DNA of 64,000 nucleotides from an uncultured Methylococcaceae bacterium. Lineage in GTDB: Bacteria > Pseudomonadota > Gammaproteobacteria > Methylococcales > Methylomonadaceae. A program made the position numbers and the translations under genes. The stretch is taken from NCBI GenBank assembly GCA_903928685.1, contig CAIYRS010000032.1, positions 414-64,413 of the forward strand, given 5' to 3'. Of the stretch, positions 5,150 to 40,727 are shown piece by piece (position 1 is the first letter of the stretch; each line of letters starts with the position of its first letter). The notes beneath the pieces were generated by a model. The model was not told where the DNA came from. It searched no databases and saw only the letters and a program-made list of their open reading frames with translations.

Positions 5150-6397
5150 ATGGCTATAGCTGCTGCTTTGCAAATATGTGCTGAAAAACTGATTGCCTGC
5201 CTGCCGCCACCGAATGTGCGCTTGGAAAAACCAGCTATTTTGCAGCATGAAGATATATTGTGTATGCCGTTGACATCACTGGATTCACGTAAATTAAAAC
5301 TTCAAGGCGGTTTATATCATCGCCAAGGTGGCTATATCCCCAGTTCTGGCTTGATTACCAACAAACAAGTTGTGGTCGGTTATGGGCCGTTGCCATTACC
5401 CAGTTCTGCGCCAGTGTTATCGGGAAAAAGCCTGTATATGGGGCTTTGTCATTCACATTTTGGACACTTTTTAATTGAAACGCTGTCCCGCTTATGGTTT
5501 TTGCAGGCGCAGCAAATTCAAGATTTTGACCATATTATCCTGTTGCCGATTAATGGTTGTGTGCCAGAGTTTGTGGTGGATTTGTTTAAATTGTTGGGGG
5601 TTGATGAGCGGCTAAAAATTATCGATGCGCCTATTTTTTTAGAGAACGTCTGTATTCCTTCGCCAGCCATTGAGTACCCTTGGAAAGTCCACCAAGTCAT
5701 CAATACTCTCCAGCAATTATTTGCCGATAGCATTGCCGTCGAGCCAACTGAGCAACCGATTTTTTTATCGCGCAATCAATTAGTGCCTGGGCATTTCCGC
5801 ATGATTATTGGCGAAGACCGCTTGGAGCAAGCCTTAGAAAGCCAAGGGGTTTATATTTACCATCCTGAAAATTATTCCATTCATCACCAAATTAGCACCT
5901 TGTCCCGTCATAAAACCATTATCAGTTTTGCAGGCAGCGCGTTACACACGATGTTGCTTTCGGGCGGCAACAAAAATGTCGTGGCTTATAGCGCCAGAAG
6001 AATTCCGTTGGTTTTTCCGTTATTGGATAAAGCCTTAAATAATAAAAGCGATTATGTGCAATCCAGGCGTTTATCGGTAAATGGTTTGGCATCGTTAGCC
6101 GTTGGCTTTAAGCCACAACTTATTGACCCTAGAATTGTTCTCAGGCGCTTGAAGCAACGCCAGTTGATCGCCAGTGAAGTGGTATCTGGCTATGGCACGG
6201 CTGCGGCGGATTTGCGTGAATGCAATCGCTATAACACGGCGATGTTATTGCAGTGGGTGCGTGAGGCGAGTCAGGTAGAGGAAAAAATGCTTTGTCTGGA
6301 GAAAATCCAGCAATTCGCCAGCAAATATCCCTTGGATGAAGAGATGTTGGCGCAAGCGAGGTTGGGAAGTGCTTTGTTGCGTGGGTATTTTCCTTAA
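5150..6397 (+). CDS. glycosyltransferase family 61 (DUF563) protein
   Basis: Carries the diagnostic HFGHFLIETLSRLW motif of GT61/DUF563. The start is uncertain; an internal Met (MPLTSLD) is also possible. Confidence 0.65.
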   Translation: MAIAAALQICAEKLIACLPPPNVRLEKPAILQHEDILCMPLTSLDSRKLKLQGGLYHRQGGYIPSSGLITNKQVVVGYGPLPLPSSAPVLSGKSLYMGLCHSHFGHFLIETLSRLWFLQAQQIQDFDHIILLPINGCVPEFVVDLFKLLGVDERLKIIDAPIFLENVCIPSPAIEYPWKVHQVINTLQQLFADSIAVEPTEQPIFLSRNQLVPGHFRMIIGEDRLEQALESQGVYIYHPENYSIHHQISTLSRHKTIISFAGSALHTMLLSGGNKNVVAYSARRIPLVFPLLDKALNNKSDYVQSRRLSVNGLASLAVGFKPQLIDPRIVLRRLKQRQLIASEVVSGYGTAAADLRECNRYNTAMLLQWVREASQVEEKMLCLEKIQQFASKYPLDEEMLAQARLGSALLRGYFP

Positions 6398-6493: not shown

Positions 6494-7804
6494 CTACAAA
6501 ATATTCGAGTAGTCTTGTTCCAATTGCTGGAAGTTAAGCGAAGTCATAAATCGGCTGAAGCTCATCCACGCAGATAATCCCATCAAATCTTTAAACTGGG
6601 GCGGTAAGAAGTGCGGCGGTATTACCGTGCCTTCTTCAACCAGATCGTGTAACACTTTCATGTCTTCAATCATGGTTTTGCCGCAGAACAGCAACGGGAT
6701 GCGGTCTGGCTTACCTTTACTTACCGCTAGTCGGATGAAGTTATAGGTGAGCACAAAGCCTTTGATATAAGTTAGGTCTTTGGTGAACGGCATGCCTGTA
6801 GCACTGCTGCCCCTAAAGACGCGGGTGCTGAGGGTGTAGCTGTCTTCTTCATCTAAGCCTTTGCTACGGAAAAACTTAAAAATTTCCAAGAAATCCGCAC
6901 CTTCTTCGACCATGGTGATGGCGCGCACCCGGTTAATTAAAGTCATCAGCCTGTGCGGTGTGGAGCTGAAAGTCAGGATTTCCATCAATACCGCCAAGCC
7001 TTCTTGGGTGATGGTTGCTGATGGTGGCCCTTTGCCAAGAAAGGTGCAATATGGCTGGGTCATGCCGTTTAAGGTGGTCCCTAGATGCACCCAAATTTCG
7101 TGGACTTCCAATACCCGTAAATCGCGCATATTGAAAAAGGCATCAGCACGTAATTTTACGTAATTGGTGCCTGCGGCAGCGTCCGAGACAATACCGTCGC
7201 TGAGCATGGCTTTGAGGCCGTCGCCAGGAAACAGGCTTTCGATTTTTTCATTAAGAATATCTACCGCATCGGCGGCTTTGATAGTTTTGGGTTCTTCAGA
7301 CAACAAATCCAATTGCACCAATTGCGATAAGGTGGCTTCCATCATACTGCCAAGTTCGGCGATGGTTGGATCGCCGACATGGAATACGTCTTGCGAAGAA
7401 CCGTACAGTTCTTGGGAGATATTAGAGAAGGTTTCTGTACCGCGCGATTCCAGCATCCATACCACATCCTGATATTCGCGGCAGATGCGGCGCATGATGA
7501 CGCTAAGCGGGTTTAGTTGCCCAAGTTTGCGGACTAAATCACGTTCGATTTCGTGAAATTCGCGTTTTTTTTCCTCAGGATCAAATCCTAAAGAACGGTT
7601 TTTATAATAGGCGGCATCAATCGCTGGTAGCTCTTTACAACCGCTTTTTAAAAACTGTTGTTTGATGTTGTCGTCCCATTTTAACGAGTCTAATACCCGT
7701 ATCGGTTGCTGGGCTTTGACAATGCGGTCAGAGAGGTTTTTTACTTCGGTAAGGTACGTTGATGGTTTTTGGTTTGTGGTACGCATGCAAGTCGTCCAAG
7801 TCAT
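6494..7804 (-). CDS. DUF1704 / QEGLA-motif protein (MATCAP-type putative metallocarboxypeptidase; annotated elsewhere as flavohemoglobin expression-modulating protein)
   Basis: Contains TQEGLAVLMEI (QEGLA motif) and an HEIWVH (HExxxH) putative zinc site. At 436 aa it fits the family size. Confidence 0.75.
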   Translation of the reverse strand: MTWTTCMRTTNQKPSTYLTEVKNLSDRIVKAQQPIRVLDSLKWDDNIKQQFLKSGCKELPAIDAAYYKNRSLGFDPEEKKREFHEIERDLVRKLGQLNPLSVIMRRICREYQDVVWMLESRGTETFSNISQELYGSSQDVFHVGDPTIAELGSMMEATLSQLVQLDLLSEEPKTIKAADAVDILNEKIESLFPGDGLKAMLSDGIVSDAAAGTNYVKLRADAFFNMRDLRVLEVHEIWVHLGTTLNGMTQPYCTFLGKGPPSATITQEGLAVLMEILTFSSTPHRLMTLINRVRAITMVEEGADFLEIFKFFRSKGLDEEDSYTLSTRVFRGSSATGMPFTKDLTYIKGFVLTYNFIRLAVSKGKPDRIPLLFCGKTMIEDMKVLHDLVEEGTVIPPHFLPPQFKDLMGLSAWMSFSRFMTSLNFQQLEQDYSNIL

Positions 7805-10865: not shown

Positions 10866-10891
10866 GCATTTGCCCCTGTTAGGGCAAATGC
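10866..10891 (-). terminator. hairpin overlapping the lpd stop codon (candidate suc operon terminator)
   Basis: On the minus strand GCATTTGCCC-taaca-GGGGCAAATGC forms a 10-bp stem that includes the TAA stop. The trailing T tract is weak. Confidence 0.4.
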
Positions 10892-12327
10892 AAAGTGCGT
10901 TTTTTTAAAGCCAAAGCGGCTTCGTGTAAGGTTTCAGATAAGGTGGGATGGACGTGGATAGTACGCGCTAAATCTTCACTGCTGGCGGAATATTCCATTG
11001 CCAGCACCGCTTCGGCAATCATTTCTGATGCGCCTGCGCCGATAATATGGACACCAAGAATGTTGTCGGTTTCGGCATCGGTGATGATTTTTACTAGGCC
11101 GTCAGTTTTGCCAATGGCTTGGGCGCGGGCAATGGCGCTAAAGGGAAATGATCCGGTTTTGATGGCGATACCCATCGCTTTCAACGCTTGTTCGGTTTGC
11201 CCAACCCAAGCAATTTCCGGATCGGTATAAATAACGCTGGGGATGGTGCCATAGTTAATGTCGCTATGCAGGCCAGCGATTTGTTCAGCCACGAACACAC
11301 CTTCTTCTATGCCTTTATGGGCAAGCATCGGCCCTAGCAAGGTCAGGTCGCCAATCGCGTAAACACTAGGCAAATTGGTGCGGCAATTTTCATCAACATG
11401 CACATAGCCCGTCTCATCCAATAAAAGATTGGCTTCTGGGGCGGCGAGGTTTTCGGTGTTGGGTTTGCGGCCTGATGCCACGATCAGTTTGTCTACCCGC
11501 AGGGTGTGCGTGCCTTCTTGATCTTGGTATTCAACCGCAACCCGTTTAGGGCCTTTTTTGGCGGCAATAACCCGTGCACCTAAGCGTAAATCAAAGCCTT
11601 GGCGGGTGAATATCCGATAAGCTTCTCTGGCGATTTGGTGGTCAGGTAAGGGCAAGAAGGTTTCTTGGGCATCCAATAAAATTGTTTCTGAGCCTAGGCG
11701 ATTCCAAATGCTCGCCAATTCCAAGCCGATAACACCCGCGCCGATGATGGCGATTTTTTTCGGTAACTCCGCCATGTTGAGGGCAGCAAAAGAATCAATA
11801 ATGTATTCATTGTCGATTTTCGCGCAGCTAAGTTGGATAGGCGAAGAGCCTGTCGCCAAGACGATATGTTTGGCGGTGAGGGTAGCGGGGATGTTGTCGG
11901 CATCGCTGGGGCTACTTGGGGTAAGTGCAATCTCTTTGTTTTTAAGCAGTTTGGCGCGGGCGCGGATATGGTCGATTTTATGGTGAGTGAACAACTCGCC
12001 AATTTTGTGGCTGAGTTTATTGATGATCTGGTCTTTGCGTCCGACCATTTGGGCAAGATCAACGCGGACATTGTCCGCGTAAATGCCATGTTGCTGGATT
12101 TCTTGTTGCAATGAATGGTAAAGCTTGGCGGATTCCAATAAGGTCAGCGAGGCTACGCACCCGGCATTAAGATGCGCGCCACCCAACGGCGTTAGCCCTT
12201 GGCTGTTTCGCCAATTGTCGATGCAAGCGGTTTTTAGGCCTAATTGCGCGGAACGGATGGCGCAAGAGTAACCTGCTGGGCCTGCGCCGATAATGATGAC
12301 ATCATACTGGGTGGTTTTTTTTGTCAT
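10879..12327 (-). CDS. lpd: dihydrolipoyl dehydrogenase homologue (E3, LpdG type) with a non-canonical active-site segment
   Basis: FAD motif GAGPAGY, NAD motif IGAGVIGLE and the C-terminal HPTLSE His-Glu dyad are conserved. The redox-disulfide segment reads GGAHLNAGCVASLTLL instead of GGTCLNVGCIPSKALL. It lies last in the sucA-sucB operon. Confidence 0.85.
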   Translation of the reverse strand: MTKKTTQYDVIIIGAGPAGYSCAIRSAQLGLKTACIDNWRNSQGLTPLGGAHLNAGCVASLTLLESAKLYHSLQQEIQQHGIYADNVRVDLAQMVGRKDQIINKLSHKIGELFTHHKIDHIRARAKLLKNKEIALTPSSPSDADNIPATLTAKHIVLATGSSPIQLSCAKIDNEYIIDSFAALNMAELPKKIAIIGAGVIGLELASIWNRLGSETILLDAQETFLPLPDHQIAREAYRIFTRQGFDLRLGARVIAAKKGPKRVAVEYQDQEGTHTLRVDKLIVASGRKPNTENLAAPEANLLLDETGYVHVDENCRTNLPSVYAIGDLTLLGPMLAHKGIEEGVFVAEQIAGLHSDINYGTIPSVIYTDPEIAWVGQTEQALKAMGIAIKTGSFPFSAIARAQAIGKTDGLVKIITDAETDNILGVHIIGAGASEMIAEAVLAMEYSASSEDLARTIHVHPTLSETLHEAALALKKRTLHLP

Positions 12328-12329: not shown

Positions 12330-13562
12330 TTAAATATTAAGAAGAAGGTGAGCGGGTGCTTCCAAGCATTCTTTAATAGTGACCAAAAATTGTACCGCTT
12401 CACGTCCGTCTACTAAGCGATGGTCGTAAGATAAGGCCAGATACATAATCGGGCGGATGACGATTTGTCCGTTTTCTACCACGGCTCGTTCTTTTATGGC
12501 GTGCATCCCTAAAATGGCGCATTGCGGTGGGTTTAAGATGGGTGTTGATAACATCGAACCAAACACGCCGCCATTGGTGATGGTAAACGTGCCGCCTTTT
12601 AAATCGTCATAATTTAACGTGCCAGCGCGGGCTTTTTCGCCGTAATTGACGATGCTTTTTTCGATGCCAGCAAAATCCAATTGGTCGGCATCTTGGATGA
12701 CAGGCACGATTAGGCCGCGCGGTGTGCTGACGGCAATGCCTAAATCGTAATAGCCGTGATAAATAATGTCGTTGCCGTCAATGGAGGCGTTGATGGCAGG
12801 GAATTTTTTTAATGCTTCGATGGAGGCTTTAACAAAAAACGACATAAACCCCAGTTTGACGGCGTGTTTTTGTTCAAAACGGGTTTTGTATTGGTTACGC
12901 AAATCCATGACGTTTTGCATGTTGACTTCGTTAAAGGTGGTCAACATCGCGGCATTTTGTTGCGCTTGCAGTAATCGCTCGGCAACTTTTGCCCGTAAGC
13001 GTGTCATTGGTACACGTTGTTCGGGGCGCAAATTAGAAGCCGCAGCCGCCACTGTGCTGGTGGCAATGGCTATCGGGGCAATCGCTTCAGGTACGGCTTC
13101 TTTGCTTGGTGTAACAACGGCAGCTGCTTCAGCTGCTGGGGCTTGTTTGCTGAGGTGATCCAGCACATCGGTTTTAGTTAGTCGACCGCTTTTGCCAGTA
13201 CCGGTAATTTCCGCTGGGTTTAGGGTGTTTTCACTAATCAAACGCCGTACTGACGGGCTTAATGGCATGTCAGCGGTATTTTCTGCCGCAACTTCGGCAG
13301 GTGTGCTGGCTGCTACGGCAGTGCCTGCGGCGGCTAAGACGGCTAATAATTCGCCGCTGGTAACCACGGTGCCGTTGTCTTTTAGTATCTGGGTAAGTAT
13401 GCCGGATTCTGGTGCGGTGACTTCCAAAACCACTTTGTCCGTTTCCAAATCGACCAAATTATCGTTTTTGTTGACGCTATCGCCGACTTGCTTGTGCCAA
13501 GTGATTAGCGTGGCATCGGCAACGGATTCGGGGAGGTTGGGGACTAAAACTTCAATGCTCAT
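12330..13562 (-). CDS. sucB: dihydrolipoamide succinyltransferase (E2 of 2-oxoglutarate dehydrogenase)
   Basis: Single lipoyl domain with [10 protein letters not shown], an Ala/Pro-rich linker and the catalytic motif [12 protein letters not shown]. Its ATG overlaps the sucA stop (ATGA). Confidence 0.93.
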
Positions 13563-16390
13563 GGTTGGTTTCCTGAAGGTTTTCCGTATAAGGCGGAGTG
13601 TACGACAGCTTTTTGTTGGTCGATATGGACGTGAAAATTGCCTACAGCGGGTGACGCCGATGGCGGTCTGCCTGCGTAGGTTACTTTAATGGTTGGCGGC
13701 AGGTTATCGCTAAAATGATGGCTGGAGTTATACCAAGCACCTTGATTTTTAGGTTCTTCCTGACACCAGATAAATTCTTGCAAATTAGGGTATTTGGCGA
13801 TTTCTGCTTTGAACGCTTCCAAAGGGAATGGATACAACTGTTCAATGCGGGCAATCGCGACATGTTTTAGATCGTCTTCGCGGCGGGCTTCCAGTAAGTC
13901 GTAATAGACTTTGCCCGCGCAAAATACTAGTCGTGTGATTTTTTTGTTACTGACTTTATCTACCTCGCCAATAATGGTTTGGAATTGTCCGTTGCTTAAG
14001 TCTTCCAAGGTTGAAATCGCCAGTTTATGGCGTAACAAACTTTTGGGGCTCATGATAATTAACGGTTTGCGATAAGGGCGCAACACTTGGCGGCGCAACA
14101 AATGGAAAATTTGCGCGGGCGTGGTTGGATAGCACACTTGCATATTGTGTTCGGCACACAATTGCAGATAACGCTCTAATCGGGCGGAAGAATGTTCTGG
14201 GCCTTGGCCTTCAAAACCATGTGGCAATAACATCACCAAGCCGCATAACCGTCCCCATTTGGTTTCCCCGGAGCTGATGAATTGGTCGATCAGCACTTGT
14301 GCGCCGTTGGCGAAATCACCAAATTGCGCTTCCCAAATCACCAAAGTGTTTGGCGTGGTGGTGCTGTAGCCGTATTCAAAGCCCAGTACACCTGCTTCGG
14401 AAAGTAAGGAATCGAAAATCTGCGCTTGGCCTTGGTCTTTATCCAGGTGCTTTAATGGTGTGTAGGTTTTGTTGTTGATTTGGTTATGCAGTACCGCATG
14501 GCGATGCACAAAAGTACCGCGACCGACATCTTGTCCGGTGATGCGGATGTGGTGTTTTTCTAGCACTAAGGTGCCGTAGGCCATGTTTTCGGCAAATCCC
14601 CAGTCCAAAGGCATTGCCCCAGCCGCCATTTTGCGGCGGTTATCCATGACTTTAGCAACCCGTGGGTGCAATTCAAAGCCCGTCGGCAGGCGTAACATGC
14701 GGTCATTGCAGAACCTTAGCCGATCTAGCGTCACCGAGGTGTTGCATGGCGTAGTCCAACTTTTATTGAGGAATTGCTGCCATTGGCTGTTGTAGGTGTA
14801 GTTTTCGTTTTCCAATACCGGACGCGAGACGATTTCACCCGCTTCCAACAGATTTTGGTAATCTTGCTGCATAGCGGCGCATTGCTCGGTGGTCATGACG
14901 CCTTCAGCAACCAATTGTTCCGCGTAAAGTTTGCGCGTGGTTTTGTGCTTGCGGATTTTTTTGTACATCGCTGGCTGGGTCGCCGCTGGCTCATCCGCTT
15001 CGTTGTGACCTAGCCTGCGGTAACAGATCAGGTCAATCACCACGTCTTGGTGGAAATTCATTCGGTAATCTACCGCTAATTGGGTGACGAACAGCACCGC
15101 TTCTGGATCATCGCCGTTAACGTGGAATACCGGTGCTTGGATCATTCTGGCGACATCGGTGCAGTAGGGTGTGGAGCGGGCATCGAGCGGATTGCTGGTA
15201 GTGAAGCCAATTTGATTGTTGATGACCACGTGAATCGTGCCGCCCGTAGAAAAGGCGCGGGTTTGTGACATATTCAGGGTTTCCATGACGATGCCTTGGC
15301 CTGAAAATGCCGCATCACCGTGGATAAGAATCGGTACGACGGTGTTTTTGCCGTTTTCTCCCGCGCGGTCTTGACGGGCTTTTACCGAGCCTTCCACTAC
15401 TGGATTGATGATTTCCAAGTGCGACGGGTTAAAGGCCAGTGCCAAATGCACTGGGCCGCCCGGAGTGTTTAAGTTGGAAGAAAAGCCCATGTGGTATTTG
15501 ACGTCGCCGGAACGCATCCCCGGTGCTAGGGTGTAATTGCCTGCGAATTCATCAAACAAGCTGGCGGGGCTTTTGCCTAAAATATTGACCAAGACATTTA
15601 AGCGACCGCGATGCGCCATGCCGATAACCATTTCTTTTACGCCTTTTTCGCCGGAACGCTGGATCAGCTCATCCAAGATCGGGATTAGCGATTCCCCGCC
15701 TTCTAAAGAAAAGCGTTTTTGCCCGACAAACTTGTTTTGCAAATGAGTTTCTATGCCTTCTGCCGCCGTCAGCAATTTTAATGTCCAGCGTTTCTGTTCG
15801 GGGCTGAGTGCCAATTTGGCTTTGCTGCTTTCCAAGCGGTTAATCAGCCAGCGACGGGTGGGCGTATCGTCAATGTGCATGTATTCCGCACCGATACTGC
15901 CGCAATAGATAGTCCGCAGGTTCGCCAAGATTTGCCGTAACGGCAAGCGGTCTTGTCCGTGCATTAAGCCCGTATCGAATAGCGTGTCCATGTCCGGTTC
16001 TGACAAACCATAGTAAGACGGTTCCATGTCCGGCGGCGGCGGGGTGGTTTTGCCCAGCGGGTTGTTATTGGCAATTTGATGGCCACGCACCCGATAATGG
16101 TTAATCAATCGGGCTACTGCCGATTGTTTTTTAACGCTTTCCTCGGTAAAACCTTGCAGTTGCGCTAATCGGCCTGGCGATTGGCTAGCAAGTTCGCTAA
16201 AGCGGGCAACGATCGGGCTATGTGGGGTGTCGGCGGTGGCTTGCGGGCGCAAAGCTTTAAAATGTTGTTGCCAACTTACGTCAACGGATTCCGGGTTTTC
16301 CAGATAGCGTTCGTAAAGGTCTTCAATAAAAGTGGCATTGCTGCCGTAGAAAGAGGAGGAGTCTTGGAATTGTTTTAGCAGATTACTCAT
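13559..16390 (-). CDS. sucA: 2-oxoglutarate dehydrogenase E1 component
   Basis: 943 aa from the ATG at 16390 ([16 protein letters not shown]...). ThDP-region motif [18 protein letters not shown]. The ORF-track start at 16420 adds 10 unlikely residues. Confidence 0.93.
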
Positions 16391-16446
16391 TAGGTTTATC
16401 CGGATGATACGCACGGACACTATAGTACCAATCTATAGCGGCTAGG

Positions 16447-24758: not shown

Positions 24759-27191
24759 ATGCTTGATAAAGGTTGTAGAAATAAAACTAAATTAATCACT
24801 TCAGTGTTGGTTGTTTTAACGTTATTGCAAGCTTGCAACAAAGAAGAAGATGCCCAAGAGCATCTGCAAAAAGGCGTCGAGTATCTTAATAACGGGGAAT
24901 ATGAAAAAGCCCAGTTGGAATTAAAAACCTCAAACCAAGCCAACAAAGATACCGCTGATACCTATTACTATTTAGCGTTGCTAGATGAAAAGACTCGCAA
25001 CTTTAAAGTCATGAAAGAAAATTTGCTCAAAGCGATTGAGCTGTCTTCGGATCATGTTAAAGCCAGGGTGAAATTGGGTAATTTGTATATTTTATTGGGT
25101 GATATTGATAGCGCAAACCAACAGGCCGAAGCGGTTTTAGCCATCGCCAATCAAAATGAAGAAGCATTATTACTGAAAGCATCGGTAGAAATTGGCCTAA
25201 AAAAATATAACGAAGCGGTTGCTGTTATTGATGGCGTACTGAAAACAAACCCCAAAAGTGGTGATGCTATCGCTTTGAAATCCTTGCTGTATTCCCAGCA
25301 GGGCGATACGGTTAAAGCGCTTGCCTTAATTGATGATGCTTTGAAATTAGATGCCAAAAATGTTGCATGGCATATCTTTAAAATCCAGTTGCATTCAAAT
25401 GCCAAAGAGCAGGATGCTGTAATCAATGATTTTAATAACTTAATTGCTGCATTCCCAGACAATCAAGAATATAAAATCATGTTGGTTAAAGAATATGCCC
25501 GTAATGGGGATGACAAACAGGCCGAGGCTTTAATCACTAAAATAATTGCCGCCGCACCTAAGGATGTCAGGCCAAAATTATTGTTGTTAGATCTTATTGT
25601 CACAGGTGAAGAAAACAAGGGTTCTGATAAGTTAACCAAGCAATTCAATGAGTTTGTAGAGCAATATAAAACGGACGCACAATCCCTGCTTACCTTTGCC
25701 GATTGGATGTCAAAAAGAAGAGATTTTGATGAAGCGAATTCGGTGCTTAACCGGATATTGGCGATAGAAAAAAAATCGGAAATGGGTTATGTCGCAAAAA
25801 TCAAGTTAGCCCGTAACGCTTTAGATAATAATGAAGTTGAAAAAGCGGCTACTTATATCAATGAGGTACTTACAGCCAATCCAGATCTGGATGCGGCTAA
25901 AATTGTCCAATCCCGCATTTTGATTTCTAAAAAACAATTTGATGAAGCCCTTGGCCTGTTGAATAAAATTGATTGGAGCACACCAAATTCTGACGAAATT
26001 AAGTTTTTGTTTGGTCAAGCTTATTTGGGCAAAGGCGATGATGAAAAAGCACAGGCGCATTTTGCTAAAGCTCTGGAATTAAACCCGAGCAATTTGGATG
26101 CTTTCGGATTTGTTTACAACAGTGCTATGGCAAGAAAAGATGTTAAATACGCCAAAGACTTATTAGAAAAAACCCTAAAATATTTGCCATCCAATCTAAT
26201 TTTACTGCAACAATTGGGGCAACTTAATGTAATGAACAAAGATTGGAATGGTTCCCAATCGGTTGTTCGTGCTATTGCTAATGTTGAAAATCCTTTAGCG
26301 AAAGATTTGTCCAGATATTTACAGGCACAAGTCTACCAAGCCCAAGAAAACTACCCCAAAGCCATTGAGATATATAAGCAGTTATTAGATAAGTTTCCTG
26401 AGAATACCGATGCTTTAAACAATATGGCGACTTGTTATGAGAAATTGAATAAGCGTCAAGATATGGTGGCTTACTTAAATGGGGTTTTGCAGAAAGAACC
26501 TGACAACATATCCGCGGCTGTAATCGTTATCCGCTATTTTGTTCAAGATAAGGAATTCGATAAAGCTGCCGCTTTGCTATCCCAAGCGATTAAAGCCGAT
26601 CCAAAAAATGCCAAGCTATATAGCTATTTAGCGAGTGTCAAATTATCGCAAGGTGATAGTAAAGGCATGATAGCTACTTATCAGGAAGGCATTAAAAACA
26701 ACCCCAAGGACATTGAGTTGCCCTTGTTATTGGCAAGTGGGTATGAATCACAAAATAACTTTACTTCGGCAATTGAAATTTATGAAAAGTTATTAGTGGA
26801 AAATCCAAAGCTTGAAATTGCCATAAATAATTTAGCCAGCATATTGGCGGATCAATTTACTGATAAGGACAAAATTGACAGGGCAGTACTATTGTCGAAA
26901 GTTTTTAAAAACGCATCACAACCCACACTTAAAGATACCTACGGATGGGCTTTAATCAAACAAGGAAATATAGACGAAGGCTTGGTTGTTTTAAAAGAAG
27001 TGGTTACCAGTGCGCCTGATGTGCCAGTATTTAAATATCATTTAGCGACGGCTTTGTATAAAAAAGGCGATTTAGCCGCTGCAAAATCTGAAATAAAGCA
27101 AGCAATCGATCAAGCTATATTGAGAAAACTGCCTGATGAGCAGAAAAATGCCGAACTGTTGTTAAAAGAATTGGAAAAGTCTGAAAAATAA
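24759..27191 (+). CDS. prsT: PEP-CTERM system TPR-repeat lipoprotein (PrsT-like)
   Basis: Lipobox LLQAC at the N-terminus. The 810-aa protein is composed almost entirely of TPR repeats and sits at the head of the XrtA-type EPS gene set. Confidence 0.75.
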   Translation: MLDKGCRNKTKLITSVLVVLTLLQACNKEEDAQEHLQKGVEYLNNGEYEKAQLELKTSNQANKDTADTYYYLALLDEKTRNFKVMKENLLKAIELSSDHVKARVKLGNLYILLGDIDSANQQAEAVLAIANQNEEALLLKASVEIGLKKYNEAVAVIDGVLKTNPKSGDAIALKSLLYSQQGDTVKALALIDDALKLDAKNVAWHIFKIQLHSNAKEQDAVINDFNNLIAAFPDNQEYKIMLVKEYARNGDDKQAEALITKIIAAAPKDVRPKLLLLDLIVTGEENKGSDKLTKQFNEFVEQYKTDAQSLLTFADWMSKRRDFDEANSVLNRILAIEKKSEMGYVAKIKLARNALDNNEVEKAATYINEVLTANPDLDAAKIVQSRILISKKQFDEALGLLNKIDWSTPNSDEIKFLFGQAYLGKGDDEKAQAHFAKALELNPSNLDAFGFVYNSAMARKDVKYAKDLLEKTLKYLPSNLILLQQLGQLNVMNKDWNGSQSVVRAIANVENPLAKDLSRYLQAQVYQAQENYPKAIEIYKQLLDKFPENTDALNNMATCYEKLNKRQDMVAYLNGVLQKEPDNISAAVIVIRYFVQDKEFDKAAALLSQAIKADPKNAKLYSYLASVKLSQGDSKGMIATYQEGIKNNPKDIELPLLLASGYESQNNFTSAIEIYEKLLVENPKLEIAINNLASILADQFTDKDKIDRAVLLSKVFKNASQPTLKDTYGWALIKQGNIDEGLVVLKEVVTSAPDVPVFKYHLATALYKKGDLAAAKSEIKQAIDQAILRKLPDEQKNAELLLKELEKSEK

Positions 27192-27241
27192 CCAGCCAAT
27201 TAATGTTTAAAATTCCATTTTATTAATTTTCGGAGACAGTT

Positions 27242-28252
27242 TTGAAGATATTGGTAACAGGGGCAGCTGGGTTTATTGGCTCCACCCTGAGCATTAAATT
27301 GCTGGAAAGGGGAGATGAAGTTGTTGGTATCGATAATTTAAACGATTACTACGACGTAAACTTGAAGTTAGCCCGATTAGAAAGGTTAAAAACATATCAA
27401 CAATTTAAGTTTATTAAAGTTGATATTGCCGACAGAGTGGCAATCGAAGCACTTTTTAAGGCCGAAAAATTTGACAGGGTCATGCACTTAGCTGCACAAG
27501 CGGGTGTTAGGTATTCATTGACCAACCCACATGCGTATATCGATGCCAATATTGTTGGTTTTACCAATATTTTGGAAGGATGTCGCCATAACGAGGTTGA
27601 GCATTTAGTTTACGCCTCATCCAGTTCGGTTTATGGCGCGAATACCAATATGCCGTTCTCTATCCATGATAACGTCGACCATCCGGTTTCGTTATACGCC
27701 GCCAGTAAAAAAGCCAATGAGTTGATGGCGCATACCTATAGCCATTTGTATCGCTTGCCAACTTCAGGATTGCGGTTTTTTACCGTCTATGGGCCATGGG
27801 GCAGGCCGGATATGTCGTTGTTTATGTTTACCCAAAATATTTTAGAAGGTAAACCGATAGATGTATTTAATTTCGGCAACCATCGTCGCGATTTTACTTA
27901 TATTGATGATATTGTCGAAGGCGTCGTTAGGGTAATAGACCAACCGGCAACCTCGAATCCCAATTGGCAAGGTGATAATCCTGATCCAGGCACCAGTTTG
28001 GCGCCTTACCGGGTTTACAATATTGGTAATAATAACCCGGTACATTTATTGACCTTTATTGAAACCTTAGAAAATTGTCTGGGTAAAAAAGCCATTAAAA
28101 ACCTGTTGCCTCTGCAACTGGGTGATGTGCCGGATACTTATGCCGATGTCAGTGATTTGGTCAATGATTTTAACTATAAACCAGCCACATTATTAGTAGA
28201 TGGCGTGAGCAAATTTGTTGCTTGGTATAAAGATTTTTATAAGGTCGCCTAA
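27242..28252 (+). CDS. NAD-dependent nucleotide-sugar 4-epimerase (UDP-glucuronate/UDP-GlcNAcA 4-epimerase family)
   Basis: TTG start after RBS ggaga. Rossmann motif [10 protein letters not shown] and SDR catalytic YAASKKANE. Strong resemblance to the Cap1J/LpsL/WbnF family. Confidence 0.85.
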
Positions 28253-29544
28253 TGTCCGATCACAAAAGAAAAATAGCAGTTGTCGGCTTAGGTTATGTCG
28301 GATTACCTGTCGCCGTTGAATTTGGAAAAAGCCAACAAGTTGTTGGCTTTGATATAAACCAAGAGCGAATCGATGAATTGCAACAGGGCATTGAGCGCAC
28401 TAGGGAAGTGGCGGCAGCCGATTTAGCGGCAGCGAATATTTTGTATACTTGTGATGCCAACGATTTAAAAAAAGCCGATTTTCATATAATCGCCGTACCA
28501 ACCCCGATAAACCACGCCAAACAACCTGATTTATCGCCGGTTATCAATGCCTCAATAACCGTCGGAAGGCAGCTTAAAAAAGGCGATATAGTCGTCTATG
28601 AATCCACTGTTTATCCCGGTGCAACTGAAGAAGACTGTATTCCGGTACTAGAACGCGAATCTGGATTGCGTTGGTTGGAAGACTTCAATGTCGGTTACTC
28701 CCCTGAACGCATCAACCCGGGCGATAAAGTCCACACCTTTAAAACCATCACTAAAGTGGTATCGGGCGATACTCCCGCTACCTTGGATATAGTCGCAGCC
28801 GTCTATCAATCCGTTGTTACCGCAGGCGTACATAAAGCCCCTAGCATTAAAGTCGCTGAAGCCGCCAAAGTCATTGAAAATACCCAAAGGGATTTGAATA
28901 TCTCCCTAATGAATGAGCTGGCCTTAATTTTCAATAAAATGGCTATTGATACCCGTGACGTATTAACGGCGGCATCCTCAAAATGGAATTTTTTGCCGTT
29001 TGAACCAGGCTTGGTTGGCGGTCATTGCATCGGGGTTGACCCTTATTATCTGACGTATAAAGCCGCTGTTTTAGGCTATTCCCCGCAAGTAATACTGGCA
29101 GGCAGAAGCATTAATGACAGCATGGGCGGTTTTATAGCCAGCCAAACCATTAAAGAATTGATTAAAGCAGGCGTTAACGTCAAAGGCAGTGTGGTCACTA
29201 TCTTAGGCTTTAGCTTTAAAGAAAATGTCCCAGATACCCGAAATACCCGGGTAATTGATATAGTCTTAGAGCTTGCCGAATATGGCATTGACGTCCAAGT
29301 CTTCGAGCCAATGGCGGATGCCCACGAAATACAAGCAGAATACGGTCTTGCTGTTACCACAGAAGAAGCGCTGTTAAAGCCGGCCAATGCCGTCATTTTG
29401 GCGGTAGCGCACCAATATTTTATGGATAAAAGTTGGCCTTATATGGCGCAACTGTTGATAGATCAGGCTGGTATCGTCATTGATGTTAAAGGCAAGCTGG
29501 ATAGGGATACCATACCCGATAATATCCGTTTTTGGCGGTTGTAG
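28252..29544 (+). CDS. UDP-N-acetyl-D-glucosamine (or related) 6-dehydrogenase, TviB/WbpO family
   Basis: Near-colinear with TviB as I recall it: VGLGYVGLPVAVEFGK, VVYESTVYPGATEE, YSPERINPGDK, KVAEAAKVIENTQRDLNI and GLVGGHCIGVDPYYL (catalytic Cys). The start overlaps the epimerase stop (TAATG). Confidence 0.88.
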   Translation: MSDHKRKIAVVGLGYVGLPVAVEFGKSQQVVGFDINQERIDELQQGIERTREVAAADLAAANILYTCDANDLKKADFHIIAVPTPINHAKQPDLSPVINASITVGRQLKKGDIVVYESTVYPGATEEDCIPVLERESGLRWLEDFNVGYSPERINPGDKVHTFKTITKVVSGDTPATLDIVAAVYQSVVTAGVHKAPSIKVAEAAKVIENTQRDLNISLMNELALIFNKMAIDTRDVLTAASSKWNFLPFEPGLVGGHCIGVDPYYLTYKAAVLGYSPQVILAGRSINDSMGGFIASQTIKELIKAGVNVKGSVVTILGFSFKENVPDTRNTRVIDIVLELAEYGIDVQVFEPMADAHEIQAEYGLAVTTEEALLKPANAVILAVAHQYFMDKSWPYMAQLLIDQAGIVIDVKGKLDRDTIPDNIRFWRL

Positions 29545-29754
29545 AAAATCGCTAAAAATTTATTTTAAACAGGCTATGCTACGCAATTGCGGTCTTGTTC
29601 GGTATTTGAAATCCTCATGTGTATCCATACACCCCAGTTTTTCCTTTCTGTTCAACCTGCAATATAACGGTACGCAACGGTTTAAATCGGTTTTTAAGTC
29701 AAAGAGTTTTTCATAAATATTGGCATCAGTGTTTAAAAATAAGGTGATACTGAG

Positions 29755-30489
29755 ATGTTTCTAAGAAAATTTTATTGGATATTGGCTGTATTGGTTTTAT
29801 GCCTTTCAGCGTGTTCGCGCCCGCCGCAATTAGCTGATGAAGATATAGTCGTGCCATCAGACTACACTTACGTTATTGGCCCTGGCGATAGTTTGAACAT
29901 CTTTGTTTGGGGCAATCCAGACCTATCCACTAATGCCACGGTTAGGCCAGATGGGAAAATTACCATTCCCCTTGCAGAAGACTTATTGGCGACCGGTAAA
30001 ACCCCAGCCCAACTAGCGCGGGTAATGGAAAAAATCTTATCCAAATATGTCCGTGATCCGCAAATTGTTATCATGGTGCAGGGATTTCAAGGTACATATA
30101 GCCAGCAAGTCCGTATCATCGGGCAATTGAGTGGCGGCAGCAGCGGTGGCGGAAGCAGTCTCGGCAGTGCAGGATCATTAGGATCGGGATCGTCTGGGCT
30201 AGGATCATCATCCGGTGGCGGCGGTTCTGGATTTGGCGGTGGTAGCGCAGGCTTCTCGGCAAAATCTTTTCCGTATAAAAAAGATATGACCTTATTGGAT
30301 TTAATGATTCAAATCGGTGGCTTAGGCCAATATGCTGATGGTAACCGCGCCAGTATTTTACGGAATATCGGTGGTGAGCAGCACCGTTTTGGTATTAGGA
30401 TAAATGATTTGATTGAAGAAGCGGATTTAACGGCAAATGTAAAAATAATGCCGGGCGACATCATTATTATCCCCGAATCCTTCTTTTAA
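29755..30489 (+). CDS. XrtA/PEP-CTERM-type polysaccharide export lipoprotein (Wza-like Poly_export + SLBB) with a Gly/Ser-rich insert
   Basis: Lipobox LSAC. The Poly_export-like segment YVIGPGDSLNIFVWGNPDLS...VRPDGKITIPL is followed by a ~43-residue G/S linker and then an SLBB-like C-terminus. Confidence 0.8.
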   Translation: MFLRKFYWILAVLVLCLSACSRPPQLADEDIVVPSDYTYVIGPGDSLNIFVWGNPDLSTNATVRPDGKITIPLAEDLLATGKTPAQLARVMEKILSKYVRDPQIVIMVQGFQGTYSQQVRIIGQLSGGSSGGGSSLGSAGSLGSGSSGLGSSSGGGGSGFGGGSAGFSAKSFPYKKDMTLLDLMIQIGGLGQYADGNRASILRNIGGEQHRFGIRINDLIEEADLTANVKIMPGDIIIIPESFF

Positions 30490-30578
30490 GTATTTGGACG
30501 CGTTGTTAAGGTAATTTTACAAAAACGGAATTGCCTTTAAATTAAATTAATAGGTTCTCCTAAGGCCAAACTTACACC

Positions 30579-32153: not shown

Positions 32154-32172
32154 GCGTTGTTTGGGGCATTAA

Positions 32173-33216: not shown

Positions 33217-33244
33217 TCGCACCCTACAAATCAACAAATAAGTC

Positions 33245-34768: not shown

Positions 34769-34770
34769 TT

Positions 34771-35724: not shown

Positions 35725-36053
35725 GGAATCGATGAGCTACTTGATTCCGATCATGCTTCGACAGGCTCTCGGCAACTGCTCCATGCGTTGCTCTACCTCC
35801 TGCATCCATGCAGTCGAGCACGAACGGAATCAAGTAGTTACCGTTCGGCCTGAGCTTGTCGAAGGCTTTGTTCAGCGATTCCTTAAGTATCGTAAGGCGC
35901 ATTAGCGACAGCGTCATGCGCCGGATGCTTGAAATCCAACATGCGGTGCAATACGGCTATCGCCTATTGCACCCTACAGTAGGTGTTTTACGGATTTTTT
36001 AAACATTTGTTATATAAAGCGTAGGTTGGGTTAGCGGCAGCGTAACCCAACAC
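35725..36053. repeat. mosaic of at least four extragenic repeat modules splitting the EPS locus
   Basis: Modules found:
- Paired GGAATCAAGTAG hairpins.
- Module 35768-35818, whose reverse complement also occurs at 40545-40592.
- Module 35926-35977, whose reverse complement matches 1504-1568.
- GTAGGTTGGGTTAGCGGCAGCGTAACCCAAC at 36021-36053. Confidence 0.8.
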
Positions 36054-36142
36054 AGGTCGCAATAAATGCTGGATTACGCCACCGTTTCCATCCTTATTCA
36101 AATGCAATTGAACAAAACTTAGGCAACAACCTGGAAATCCCC

Positions 36143-36979: not shown

Positions 36980-36991
36980 CCGAACAAGGCC

Positions 36992-38011: not shown

Positions 38012-38014
38012 GCG

Positions 38015-39199: not shown

Positions 39200-39203
39200 C
39201 GCC

Positions 39204-40662: not shown

Positions 40663-40727
40663 ATCATTTGTTTTTGTATCGCAGAAAATATCTGCGTAAC
40701 ATCAGTTTTGAACAAGGAATAACCACT

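What the first reader, a model, noticed from the sequence alone, without database searches (positions are those of the whole stretch)
12136..12183. The E3 (Lpd) of the 2-oxoglutarate dehydrogenase operon has lost its redox-active disulfide
I translated the minus strand myself. Residues 49-64 read GGAHLNAGCVASLTLL, where LpdG/LpdA-type E3 enzymes have GGTCLNVGCIPSKALL.
- The first (interchange) cysteine is a His codon (CAT at 12174-12172). TGY to CAT needs two base changes, so it is not a single-base slip.
- The second cysteine (TGC at 12159-12157) is kept.
- The conserved Lys of IPSK is replaced by Leu.
- Everything else looks like a functional E3: FAD and NAD GxGxxG motifs, the HPTLSE His-Glu dyad, and full length.
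- sucA (ThDP motif) and sucB (lipoyl-Lys, DHRxxDG) also look intact.

In the flavoprotein disulfide reductase family the CxxxxC pair carries the dithiol-disulfide interchange. Members that have lost one Cys (SthA transhydrogenase, M. tuberculosis LpdA Rv3303c) have changed function.

Three outcomes are therefore possible. The complex may depend on another E3, it may be inactive, or this protein may have acquired a different chemistry while staying in the operon.
Basis: partly seen in the sequence, partly recalled or inferred. Interest (0 to 1): 0.7.

Follow-up and report, generated by a model that had tools for sequence, protein, structure and literature searches.

The report
Methanotroph OGDH operon encodes disabled E3
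In a large group of methane-eating bacteria, the third gene of the 2-oxoglutarate dehydrogenase operon encodes a strongly conserved protein that keeps its cofactor sites but has lost the cysteine chemistry its textbook reaction needs, which gives a concrete lead on why these bacteria have long seemed to lack this TCA-cycle activity despite having the genes.

Summary
ORF 10879-12327(-) is an LpdG-type E3, translationally coupled to sucA-sucB, and residues 49-64 read GGAHLNAGCVASLTLL against the canonical GGTCLNVGCIPSKALL, with no gaps. It is not an error or a strain quirk. The identical protein occurs on at least 17 independent metagenome contigs. All 303 cluster representatives of a monophyletic Methylococcales clade (Methylobacter, Methylovulum, Methylosoma, Crenothrix, Methyloprofundus-like, MAGs) lack Cys1 (Y/H/F/W) and the flavin Lys (I/M/V/L). 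All 54 non-methanotroph relatives are canonical. dN/dS is 0.035-0.10. The damage is selective. The lipoamide/dithiol half-site is dismantled: Cys1, Lys and the channel Gly-Gly are gone, and Cys2, His or Glu were lost again in several subclades. The FAD, NAD(H) and E2-docking residues are about 100% conserved, and SucB keeps its lipoyl-Lys, catalytic site and E3-binding domain. The most likely reading is an E3-shaped subunit that cannot oxidise dihydrolipoamide, so OGDH turnover would need the PDH-linked Lpd. This matches "genes present and expressed, activity undetectable" in type I methanotrophs. Its positive role (brake, scaffold or NADH diaphorase) is inferred. I could not establish its status in Methylococcus, Methylotuvimicrobium or true Methylomonas. 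I found no prior description.

The parts
10879..12327 (-). E3* gene: a 482-aa LpdG-type dihydrolipoyl-dehydrogenase homologue without the redox-active disulfide
   Evidence: ORF and translation. TIGR01350 482.2 bits vs cutoff 408.8. About 50% identity to PDB 5u8u/1lpf/3lad over the full length. dN/dS 0.035-0.10.
12136..12183 (-). Degenerate redox-centre helix, residues 49-64: GGAHLNAGCVASLTLL (canonical GGTCLNVGCIPSKALL)
   Evidence: In the clade: position 52 Y170/H67/F65/W1, position 61 I/M/V/L, position 59 Pro kept in only 48/303, position 55 never Val.
12172..12174 (-). His52 codon (CAT) at the interchange-cysteine position
   Evidence: The same codon is present in the independent contigs L081 and L082.
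12157..12159 (-). Cys57 codon (TGC), the retained charge-transfer cysteine
   Evidence: Retained in 264/303 clade members and replaced by G/S/E/V in the rest.
12145..12147 (-). Leu61 codon (CTG) replacing the flavin-proximal Lys (human K54)
   Evidence: 0/303 Lys in the clade vs 54/54 in canonical relatives. K54 is listed as a FAD-site residue in PMC9698468.
12004..12009 (-). His107-Lys108 replacing the Gly-Gly turn (human G101-G102) that lines the lipoamide channel
   Evidence: Position 108: canonical Gly 54/54; clade Q158/K85/H27/N14/R13, 0 Gly. G101 is assigned to the lipoamide channel in PMC9698468. The mapping is by motif offset (my inference).
10933..10950 (-). HPTLSE His460-Glu465 dyad, intact in the window protein
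   Evidence: Across the clade His is kept in 253/303 (R34, Y7, S6) and Glu in 226/303 (K66, R6), while canonical relatives have 54/54 for both.
10972..10995 (-). Residues 445-452 (EYSASSED), equivalent to human E437/Y438/E443/D444, which dock the peripheral-subunit-binding domain
   Evidence: E445 303/303, F/Y446 303/303, E451 303/303, D452 302/303. Residue roles are from PMC9698468 / PDB 2F5Z. Caveat: the same motif is also kept in E3-like proteins that are not suc-linked.
12271..12288 (-). FAD-binding GxGxxG (G14-G19)
   Evidence: 303/303 for each Gly. D37 and D327 (GD motif) are also 303/303.
11725..11742 (-). NAD-binding GxGxxG (G196-G201)
   Evidence: At least 302/303 for each Gly. The acidic ribose ligand at 219 is E251/D52. 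G286 is 303/303 and R287 is 302/303.
12330..13562 (-). sucB (E2o, 410 aa). Its stop codon is 2 nt from the E3* start codon.
   Evidence: NF004309 580.9 bits vs 449. Lipoyl-Lys43 (13434-13436), catalytic His381 (12420-12422) and the junction TAATCATG.
13152..13265 (-). E3-binding (PSBD) domain of SucB, residues 100-137: [38 protein letters not shown]
   Evidence: At least 90% conserved at most positions in 14 Methylococcales loci, tighter than among canonical relatives. Pfam PF02817 E3_binding is recorded for this protein.
13559..16420 (-). sucA (E1o). Its stop overlaps the sucB start by 4 nt (ATGA).
   Evidence: NF006914 1357.8 bits vs 764. Junction. dN/dS 0.04-0.065.

Best explanation
The gene encodes an E3-shaped flavoprotein (E3*). 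It still folds, dimerises, and binds FAD and NAD(H). It is made in step with SucA and SucB and probably still docks on the E3-binding domain of SucB. It can no longer oxidise the dihydrolipoyl arm, because the dithiol-disulfide relay and the lipoamide channel have been dismantled. The SucAB complex of these methanotrophs therefore has no lipoamide dehydrogenase of its own. Any NAD-linked 2-oxoglutarate oxidation must borrow the canonical Lpd encoded with the pyruvate dehydrogenase genes, and that Lpd would compete with E3* for the same docking sites. The net effect would be a throttled or conditionally silent OGDH and a mainly biosynthetic, branched TCA cycle. Shown: loss of Cys1, the Lys and the Gly-Gly turn; clade-wide conservation; purifying selection; retention of the cofactor motifs; intact SucA and SucB; operon coupling. 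Inferred: lack of lipoamide activity (from the mechanism and from experimental precedents), docking to SucB, competition with the PDH-linked Lpd, and the physiological brake or scaffold role.
For: (1) Selective pattern across 303 clade members vs 54 canonical relatives. Cys1 0%, Lys 0%, channel Gly108 0%. Cys2 87%, His 83%, Glu 75%, with different extra losses in at least six subclades (YCIHK, HGMRE/HEMRE, FCLSR, FCLHK, HCIYE, YSMHE). By contrast the FAD glycines, D37, D327, the NAD glycines, the acidic ribose ligand, G286 and R287 are about 100% kept. (2) Strong purifying selection: dN/dS 0.035 at dS 0.25 and 0.04-0.10 elsewhere, similar to sucA and sucB. The rate relative to SucA is raised 1.6-fold, against 0.9-1.1 in canonical lineages, as expected if one functional site was released. 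(3) The clade is monophyletic, 100/100 bootstraps with active-site columns removed. Every locus whose SucA is at least 65% identical to the window's carries E3* directly after sucB. (4) The junctions indicate translational coupling: a 4-nt overlap and a 2-nt gap. (5) SucB keeps its lipoyl-Lys, DHRxxDG and a very tightly conserved E3-binding domain. The residues equivalent to the human E3 docking residues are invariant in E3*. (6) Experimental precedent: yeast Irc15p, an Lpd paralogue without the Cys pair, binds FAD, is reduced by NADH and has zero activity on lipoic acid. M. tuberculosis LpdA, which lacks one Cys, likewise reduces no disulfides (PMC6296175). (7) Physiology: OGDH activity is not detectable while PDH is 120-290 nmol/min/mg in M. 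alcaliphilum 20ZR. M. capsulatus has all the TCA genes but no OGDH activity. OGDH genes are highly expressed in Methylomonas DH-1. (8) Another lpd exists in related genomes, next to the PDH genes in 20Z and at a distant locus in DH-1.
Against: No biochemical data exist for this protein. The docking-residue motif (E..ED) is also conserved in E3-like proteins that are not encoded next to sucAB (P0132, P0189, P0245). Its conservation may therefore reflect the dimer interface rather than PSBD binding. Conserved NAD(H)-site residues are not needed for a pure scaffold and hint at retained redox or sensing chemistry. Cys57, His460 and Glu465 are still kept in 75-87% of members, including the window protein. 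That is more than neutral drift would leave, so some thiol chemistry may persist in most lineages. 13C tracing in M. buryatense and an sdh mutant of Methylomonas DH-1 indicate real flux from 2-oxoglutarate to succinate, so OGDH is not simply dead in all type I methanotrophs. I could not show that the organisms used in those experiments (Methylococcus capsulatus, Methylotuvimicrobium, true Methylomonas) carry E3*; none appeared among the named hits. I did not see the sequence of the PDH-linked lpd from an E3*-bearing genome.
Confidence: 0.48

Rival explanations
1. E3* has taken on a new function as a flavin-only NADH:acceptor oxidoreductase (diaphorase, quinone, metal or other acceptor), like M. 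tuberculosis LpdA or yeast Irc15p. It would work largely independently of the OGDH complex, and its place in the operon would be only inherited co-regulation.
For: The FAD and NAD(H) binding residues are about 100% conserved while the dithiol site is gone. This is exactly the situation in Irc15p and LpdA, which show diaphorase and quinone-reductase activity and no disulfide reduction. Position 52 is always a ring side chain and position 61 is always aliphatic. That looks like a constrained new flavin environment rather than decay. The sister protein in Methylothermaceae has left the suc operon and is translationally coupled to a cupredoxin-like gene.
Against: The gene has stayed immediately downstream of sucB, with a 2-nt gap, in all 14 loci examined across deep divergence. 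SucB keeps a tightly conserved E3-binding domain. No candidate acceptor or partner gene is linked to it in the window. It scores below the curated cutoffs of the SthA, NAD(P)H-quinone dehydrogenase and RclA models.
Confidence: 0.27
2. E3* still carries out thiol chemistry through the single remaining Cys57 (flavin C4a adduct, mixed disulfide or sulfenate, as in CoA-disulfide reductase or NADH peroxidase). His/Tyr52 and the His-Glu dyad would act as acid-base groups. The substrate could be the dihydrolipoyl arm by a shortened relay, or another small thiol, persulfide or peroxide.
For: The window protein keeps Cys57, His460 and Glu465. Across the clade these are retained in 87%, 83% and 75% of members, more than a neutral site would be at saturated dS. 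Known single-Cys members of the superfamily pair the Cys with a His or Tyr (established knowledge of Npx and CoADR).
Against: 39/303 members lack Cys57 (G/S/E/V), 50/303 lack the His and 77/303 lack the Glu, yet they remain under the same purifying selection. 66/303 have Phe or Trp at position 52, which cannot act as acid or base. The Gly-Gly turn of the lipoamide channel is filled with Gln/Lys/His/Arg in all members. E. coli Lpd mutants lacking the interchange Cys lose lipoamide activity (established knowledge, Hopkins and Williams 1995, cited from memory).
Confidence: 0.13
3. The change is an artefact (sequencing or assembly error), or the gene is a decaying pseudogene.
For: None beyond the prior expectation that unusual active-site changes are sometimes errors.
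Against: The identical protein is on at least 17 independently assembled contigs. The same CAT codon is flanked by synonymous differences in L081 and L082. 303 cluster representatives share the loss. The ORF is full length with dN/dS 0.035-0.10.
Confidence: 0.01

Closest known systems
LpdG-type dihydrolipoyl dehydrogenase (E3) of gammaproteobacterial sucAB-lpd operons (P. putida / A. vinelandii LpdG; PDB 1lpf, 3lad, 5u8u)
   Same: About 50% identity over the full length, the same domain order and the same operon position after sucB. The FAD and NAD motifs, the GD motif, the dimer-interface and docking residues are shared, as is the His-Glu dyad in the window protein. The tree shows descent from this type.
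   Different: No CxxxxC disulfide (Cys1 to His). No flavin-proximal Lys. The Gly-Gly of the lipoamide channel is replaced. There is a 1-residue insertion after GD. 16 of 109 canonical-invariant columns are lost. It evolves 1.6 times faster relative to SucA.
Saccharomyces cerevisiae Irc15p (Lpd1p paralogue)
   Same: It is an E3 paralogue that lost the redox-active cysteines but keeps FAD, NAD(P)H reduction and the His-Glu dyad. It has been shown to have zero activity on lipoic acid and to have diaphorase and quinone-reductase activity (PMC6296175). It is the best experimental proxy for what E3* can and cannot do.
   Different: It has an independent, recent origin (yeast whole-genome duplication). 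It lost both Cys, is not encoded or assembled with a 2-oxoacid dehydrogenase, and is associated with microtubules. E3* keeps Cys2 in 87% of members and stays in the sucAB operon.
Mycobacterium tuberculosis LpdA (Rv3303c), NAD(P)H quinone reductase
   Same: The same pattern at the redox centre, with the first Cys lost and the second kept. It reduces no disulfides.
   Different: LpdA also lacks the His-Glu dyad in all cases and keeps the Lys (from memory). It is not in a 2-oxoacid dehydrogenase operon. The window protein scores 254.5 bits against the corresponding NCBIfam model, whose cutoff is 479, so it is not a member.
Soluble pyridine nucleotide transhydrogenase SthA/UdhA
   Same: It is a member of the flavoprotein disulfide reductase family that lacks one redox Cys and the catalytic His, and it uses only the flavin and nicotinamide sites.
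   Different: SthA keeps Cys1 and loses Cys2, the opposite pattern (from memory of the E. coli sequence). It is only about 27% identical to Lpd. The window protein scores 306.9 bits against a cutoff of 465. The acidic NAD-ribose ligand is kept in E3*, which argues against dual NAD/NADP use.
E3-binding protein (E3BP/PDHX) of eukaryotic pyruvate dehydrogenase
   Same: A conceptual parallel: a catalytically dead paralogue of a 2-oxoacid dehydrogenase subunit that is kept as a structural component of the complex (established knowledge).
   Different: E3BP is a dead E2, not a dead E3, and its structural role has been demonstrated. For E3*, membership of the complex is only inferred.

Membership tests
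Dihydrolipoyl dehydrogenase (E3, EC 1.8.1.4; NCBIfam TIGR01350) | Whole-protein HMM score above the curated equivalog cutoff | tested here: met
   482.2 bits vs 408.8. This is why databases name it dihydrolipoyl dehydrogenase.
Dihydrolipoyl dehydrogenase (E3, EC 1.8.1.4; NCBIfam TIGR01350) | Redox-active CxxxxC disulfide next to the flavin | tested here: not met
   HLNAGC: Cys1 is His52. 0/303 in the clade vs 54/54 in canonical relatives.
Dihydrolipoyl dehydrogenase (E3, EC 1.8.1.4; NCBIfam TIGR01350) | Conserved Lys of IPSK (human K54) at the flavin | tested here: not met
   Leu61. 0/303 Lys in the clade.
Dihydrolipoyl dehydrogenase (E3, EC 1.8.1.4; NCBIfam TIGR01350) | Open lipoamide channel (Gly-Gly turn, human G101-G102) | tested here: not met
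   His107-Lys108. Position 108 is Gly in 54/54 canonical relatives and in 0/303 clade members. The mapping is by motif offset.
Dihydrolipoyl dehydrogenase (E3, EC 1.8.1.4; NCBIfam TIGR01350) | His-Glu catalytic dyad from the partner subunit | tested here: met
   H460 and E465 are present in the window protein. They are lost in 17% and 25% of clade members.
Dihydrolipoyl dehydrogenase (E3, EC 1.8.1.4; NCBIfam TIGR01350) | FAD and NAD(H) binding motifs | tested here: met
   Both GxGxxG motifs, D37, D327, the E/D219 ribose ligand, G286 and R287 are about 100% conserved.
Dihydrolipoyl dehydrogenase (E3, EC 1.8.1.4; NCBIfam TIGR01350) | Encoded with, and able to dock on, an E2 with a peripheral-subunit-binding domain | tested here: inconclusive
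   The operon position and coupling are met. The docking residues and the SucB PSBD are conserved. However, the same residues are conserved in homologues that are not suc-linked, and physical binding was not tested.
Dihydrolipoyl dehydrogenase (E3, EC 1.8.1.4; NCBIfam TIGR01350) | NAD+-dependent oxidation of dihydrolipoamide | not testable with these tools
   An enzyme assay is required. The precedents (Irc15p, LpdA) predict no activity.
Soluble transhydrogenase SthA (NF003585) | HMM score above the cutoff | tested here: not met
   306.9 vs 465 bits.
LpdA-type NAD(P)H-quinone dehydrogenase (NF005883) | HMM score above the cutoff, and loss of the His-Glu dyad | tested here: not met
   254.5 vs 479 bits. 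The dyad is present in the window protein.
Other flavoprotein disulfide reductases (MerA, GR, RclA, mycothione reductase) | HMM score above the curated cutoffs | tested here: not met
   All are below their cutoffs: MerA 310 vs 454, GR 266 vs 480, RclA 218 vs 740.
Methylococcales E3* clade (defined here) | Monophyly; aromatic or imidazole residue at position 52; aliphatic residue at 61; non-Gly at 108; position directly after sucB | tested here: met
   100/100 NJ bootstraps. H52, L61 and K108. Operon position.

The most novel reading that the evidence does not exclude
E3* is a dedicated non-catalytic, NAD(H)-binding subunit that occupies the E3-docking sites of SucB and so keeps the OGDH complex conditionally silent. 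It would be the molecular reason why a major group of type I methanotrophs encode and express a complete-looking OGDH yet show no activity, and therefore a contributor to the branched TCA cycle long linked to obligate methanotrophy.
Probability: 0.2. Interest if true: 0.85.

Novelty: new variant of a known kind. Interest (0 to 1): 0.72.

Why it matters
[quoted passage not shown] Genome sequences then showed that the genes are present (Ward et al. 2004), and recent papers still call the completeness of their TCA cycle an unsolved question. This finding gives that puzzle a specific, testable molecular handle. In a large clade that includes Methylobacter, Methylovulum, Crenothrix and Methyloprofundus-like organisms, the operon's own E3 cannot perform the E3 reaction by the known mechanism, yet selection keeps it. 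There is also a practical consequence. Annotation pipelines name these proteins dihydrolipoyl dehydrogenase because they pass the equivalog cutoff, so genome-scale models and metagenomic pathway calls that score OGDH as complete from these three genes may be wrong. More generally, it would be a bacterial example of a dead-enzyme subunit retained inside a 2-oxoacid dehydrogenase operon.

Tried and rejected
(1) Sequencing error or pseudogene: rejected.

Only two clade-enriched Cys columns exist. Position 26 is Cys in 84% of members, but the window has Ser. Position 168 is Cys in 77%, and it aligns to the IPPAP segment at the start of the NAD domain. Neither is universal, and there is no C-terminal Cys extension. 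Rejected, although I could not measure 3-D distances.

(3) Structure prediction. AF2 on a 50-sequence clade alignment gave only mean pLDDT 67.9, and the tool returns no coordinates. I did not use the model and did not run a fold search. The 50% identity to solved E3s already fixes the fold.

(4) Finding the PDH-linked canonical lpd sequence in an E3*-bearing genome. I judged that a homologue search seeded from them would be swamped, so I relied on published gene tables.

(5) Reaching Methylococcus, Methylotuvimicrobium or true Methylomonas. Three homologue searches from different branches and three cluster look-ups returned no such names. The loci labelled 'Methylomonas' (L011, L013, L015) are closest to proteins named Methyloprofundus.

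(6) Promoter and terminator scans around the operon were at chance level.

(7) Neighbouring genes gave no functional clue.

(8) Five literature searches for a prior description of this Cys loss found none. The Bathymodiolus proteome paper was not informative.
Full report
**1. What is in the sequence**

The minus strand of the window carries a tight three-gene operon: sucA (13559-16420), sucB (12330-13562) and an E3 gene (10879-12327). The sucA stop overlaps the sucB start by 4 nt, and only 2 nt separate the sucB stop from the E3 start (TAATCATG). NCBIfam assigns all three above curated cutoffs: E1o 1357.8 vs 764 bits, E2o 580.9 vs 449, and dihydrolipoyl dehydrogenase TIGR01350 482.2 vs 408.8.

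The E3 product aligns over its full length, at about 50% identity and E about 1e-144, to solved LpdG-type E3 structures (5u8u, 1lpf, 3lad). There are no gaps across the redox-centre helix. Residues 49-64 read GGAHLNAGCVASLTLL where canonical enzymes have GGTCLNVGCIPSKALL. The codons are His52 = CAT 12174-12172, Cys57 = TGC 12159-12157 and Leu61 = CTG 12147-12145. In this enzyme family the N-terminal Cys of the pair is the interchange thiol and the C-terminal Cys is the charge-transfer thiol (established knowledge).

**2. It is real and conserved, not an error or a strain quirk**

- Two independent metagenome contigs, 98% and 88% identical at the protein level, carry the same CAT codon, with synonymous changes in the flanking codons.
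- The identical 482-aa protein is recorded on at least 17 contigs from separate assemblies, always between sucB and the same L,D-transpeptidase gene.
- All 120 nearest database proteins (68-98% identity) lack Cys1 and the Lys. The named ones are Methylovulum miyakonense and M. psychrotolerans, Methylobacter tundripaludum and Methylosoma difficile.
- Searches seeded from the two most divergent branches added 183 more cluster representatives, including Methylobacter marinus and M. luteus, Methyloprofundus sp. and a sponge symbiont. All show the same losses.
- In a scan of one genome per GTDB species, every locus whose SucA is at least 65% identical to the window's has the variant directly after sucB. 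These are Methylovulum, Methylobacter, Crenothrix and Methylococcales MAGs. All other relatives (36-57% identity; Lysobacterales, Neisseria, Polynucleobacter, Spiribacter and others) have GGTCLNVGCIPSK and HPxxSE.
- Among the 150 nearest 50%-identity cluster representatives of a 1.84-billion-protein library, the whole variant clade collapses into one cluster (P0121). Nearly all the others have CxxxxC.
- The clade is monophyletic in 100/100 neighbour-joining bootstraps, even with the active-site columns removed.

**3. It is under strong selection**

Pairwise dN/dS (NG86) is 0.035 for the closest pair (dS 0.25) and 0.04-0.10 for other pairs. The values for sucB are 0.01-0.08 and for sucA 0.04-0.065. 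Relative to SucA, the protein evolves 1.58 times as fast (IQR 1.50-1.68) within Methylococcales. Canonical lineages run at 0.93-1.10. Constraint has been partly released but remains strong.

**4. The damage is selective**

I compared 54 canonical relatives with 303 clade members, using window numbering. Human equivalents come from PMC9698468 / UniProt P09622 and were mapped by motif offsets.

| Site (window, human) | Canonical relatives | Cys-less clade |
|---|---|---|
| Cys1 (52, C45) | Cys 54/54 | Y170, H67, F65, W1; no Cys |
| Flavin Lys (61, K54) | Lys 54/54 | I, M, V or L; no Lys |
| Channel turn, first residue (107, G101) | Gly/Ala/Ser | Gln/His/Arg/Lys/Asp |
| Channel turn, second residue (108, G102) | Gly 54/54 | Q158, K85, H27, N14, R13; no Gly |
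| Val (55) | Val 53/54 | never Val |
| Pro (59) | Pro 54/54 | Pro kept in 48/303 |
| Cys2 (57, C50) | Cys 54/54 | kept in 264/303 |
| Dyad His (460, H452) | His 54/54 | kept in 253/303 |
| Dyad Glu (465, E457) | Glu 54/54 | kept in 226/303 |

The secondary losses come in different combinations in at least six subclades: YCIHK in the M. tundripaludum group, HGMRE/HEMRE, FCLSR, FCLHK, HCIYE and YSMHE.

The following are kept:

- **FAD site:** glycines 14, 16 and 19, D37 and D327 are each 303/303.
- **NAD site:** glycines 196, 198 and 201, G286 and R287 are each at least 302/303. The acidic NAD-ribose ligand at 219 is E251/D52.
- **Docking residues:** the residues equivalent to human E437/Y438/E443/D444/D413, which dock the peripheral-subunit-binding domain, are E445 303/303, F/Y446 303/303, E451 303/303, D452 302/303 and D/E421 303/303.

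Overall, 79 of 109 canonical-invariant columns are kept in at least 90% of the clade. The lost ones cluster on the redox helix and its surroundings.

No compensating cysteine is universal. Cys26 (84% of members) is Ser in the window, and Cys168 (77%) aligns to the start of the NAD domain.

**5. The partners are intact**

In all 14 Methylococcales loci, SucB keeps the lipoyl-Lys (ETDKV), the catalytic DHRxxDG and an E3-binding domain (PLSPSVRRL...[12 protein letters not shown]). That domain is more tightly conserved inside the clade than among canonical relatives. Pfam records E3_binding for it.

**6. What it most likely is**

The canonical E3 mechanism passes electrons from dihydrolipoamide to the Cys-Cys disulfide, then to FAD, then to NAD+. 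Without the interchange Cys, and with the channel turn filled by long side chains, that route is closed.

Experimental precedents agree. Yeast Irc15p is an Lpd1 paralogue without the Cys pair. It is a FAD-containing dimer, it is reduced by NADH, and it has zero activity on lipoic acid, glutathione or cystine, yet it has good diaphorase and quinone-reductase activity. M. tuberculosis LpdA, which lacks one Cys, also reduces no disulfides (PMC6296175).

I therefore consider loss of lipoamide dehydrogenase activity very likely (about 0.85). The positive function is less certain. My best reading (0.48) is a subunit that is dead for lipoamide but still bound to the complex. The arguments are that it is made stoichiometrically with SucB, that it has held its operon position across deep divergence, and that both sides of the docking interface are conserved. 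On this reading OGDH turnover depends on the canonical Lpd encoded elsewhere, which must compete for the same sites.

The main rival (0.27) is an Irc15p/LpdA-like flavin-only oxidoreductase that merely remains co-transcribed. A residual single-Cys chemistry (0.13) cannot be excluded for the window protein itself, which keeps Cys57, His460 and Glu465. It is not a general property of the clade, however.

One caveat on the docking argument: the E..ED motif is also conserved in E3-like proteins that are not suc-linked, so it may reflect the dimer interface.

**7. Link to methanotroph physiology**

[quoted passage not shown] A 2021 paper restates this.
- In M. alcaliphilum 20ZR, PDH activity is 120-290 nmol/min/mg while OGDH is not detectable.
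- In Methylomonas DH-1 the OGDH genes are highly expressed, and the completeness of the cycle is called an unsolved question.
- Published gene tables assign to OGDH an lpd that sits beside the PDH genes (MEALZ_1357 next to MEALZ_1358/1359, with sucAB at MEALZ_1579/1580) or at a distant locus (DH-1 RS00645, with sucAB at RS11995/12000). A second lpd therefore exists in relatives.
- 13C tracing in M. buryatense and the DH-1 sdh mutant indicate some flux from 2-oxoglutarate to succinate. This fits a borrowed E3 or bypass routes and argues against a simply dead pathway.

Important limit: none of these model organisms appeared among my named E3* hits. The link between E3* and those measurements is therefore by order-level relatedness only.

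**8. Comparison with known families, and novelty**

By HMM score the protein is an E3. It fails three defining mechanistic features of E3: the disulfide, the Lys and the open channel. It is not SthA (306.9 vs 465 bits, and the opposite Cys pattern). It is not LpdA-type (254.5 vs 479 bits, and the dyad is present). It is not MerA, GR or RclA either.

It works most like Irc15p and LpdA at the active-site level, and like E3BP conceptually, as a dead paralogue kept in a 2-oxoacid dehydrogenase system. It is an independent, order-level bacterial lineage that stays inside the sucAB operon. Five literature searches found no description of it. I rate it a new variant of a known kind.

**9. What remains open**

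- Biochemical activity of the protein.
- Physical binding to SucB.
- The sequence of the PDH-linked lpd in the same genomes.
- Whether Methylococcus, Methylotuvimicrobium and true Methylomonas carry E3*.
- Whether the sister protein in Methylothermaceae shares the same ancestral loss. That protein has Cys1 replaced by Ser, keeps the Lys, has the dyad YPSLSD, is coupled to a cupredoxin-like gene and is not next to sucAB. Support for the sister relationship is 65/100 bootstraps.

Noticed in passing
L083/L084 7618-9416 (Methylothermaceae bacterium B42, GCA_011321975.1 DROA01000027.1): A second methanotroph family has a single-Cys E3-like protein (P0132: GGTSLLNGCIPAKILL, dyad YPSLSD). It is not next to sucAB. 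It overlaps by 4 nt a 128-aa cupredoxin-like gene whose product has a signal peptide and an H..C..H..M pattern like a type-1 copper site. The same gene pair occurs on an independent contig. In the NJ tree it is sister to the E3* clade (65/100).
   Followed up: partly
proteins P0189 and P0245 (Logan contigs, organism unknown): Two further orphan E3-like clusters each lack one redox Cys: GGTSVHAGCIPCK, and GGTCLHEGVIAMR with dyad YPGGAD. They do not group with the methanotroph clade, so loss of the disulfide has happened more than once among close E3 relatives.
   Followed up: partly
window 10933-10950 (residues 460-465), and clade alignment: When the His-Glu dyad is lost in subclades, the replacement is repeatedly a basic residue: His460 to Arg in 34 sequences and Glu465 to Lys or Arg in 72. 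This recurrent gain of positive charge at the former dyad, in a protein that has lost Lys61, is unexplained.
   Followed up: no
window 11341-11343 (Thr329), and residues 26 and 168: The clade has specific gains. There is a one-residue insertion right after the FAD GD motif (T/S/N in about 94% of members, absent in all canonical relatives). Two Cys columns are enriched: position 26 (84%, Ser in the window) and position 168 (77%, Cys in the window).
   Followed up: partly
L085 (Logan DRR659520, protein P0128): In one tree the nearest canonical-type relative of the clade was P0128 (GGNCFSAGCIPSKT). It keeps both Cys and the Lys but already has Ala at position 55. It is not suc-linked and sits beside a divergently transcribed Fer4/CCG iron-sulfur protein gene. 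The sister placement did not hold when more sequences were added (7/100).
   Followed up: partly
L011, L013, L015 (GTDB records titled 'uncultured Methylomonas sp.'): The closest named database proteins to these loci (71-86% identity) are annotated Methyloprofundus sp., so the record titles may be misleading. No protein from a cultured Methylomonas appeared in any hit list.
   Followed up: partly
window 24759-42614 (+): A PEP-CTERM/exosortase-type exopolysaccharide cluster. It includes a PrsT-like TPR protein, an epimerase, a UDP-glucose dehydrogenase, a Poly_export protein, an AAA_22 ATPase, a DUF3473 polysaccharide deacetylase, a GNAT protein, two glycosyltransferases, an asparagine synthase, and three ORFs of 347-524 aa (30579-34768) with no Pfam hit at E <= 1e-10.
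   Followed up: no
window 5150-6397 (+) and 6494-7804 (-): A 415-aa ORF has no NCBIfam hit at E <= 1e-5. It lies next to a 'flavohemoglobin expression-modulating QEGLA motif protein' (TIGR02421, 377.5 bits).
   Followed up: no
window 16390-16420 (-): The mechanical sucA ORF starts at GTG 16420. Alignments to orthologues begin at residues 4-11, and an ATG (Met11) lies 30 nt downstream, so the true start may be there.
   Followed up: no
published models and tables (PMC5802761 supplement; PMC6373157 Table S4): The metabolic model of M. alcaliphilum 20Z and the Methylomonas DH-1 transcriptome table both assign to OGDH an lpd that is not adjacent to sucAB. Neither lists a gene next to sucB. It remains open whether those genomes lack a suc-linked E3 or whether it was simply omitted.
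   Followed up: partly
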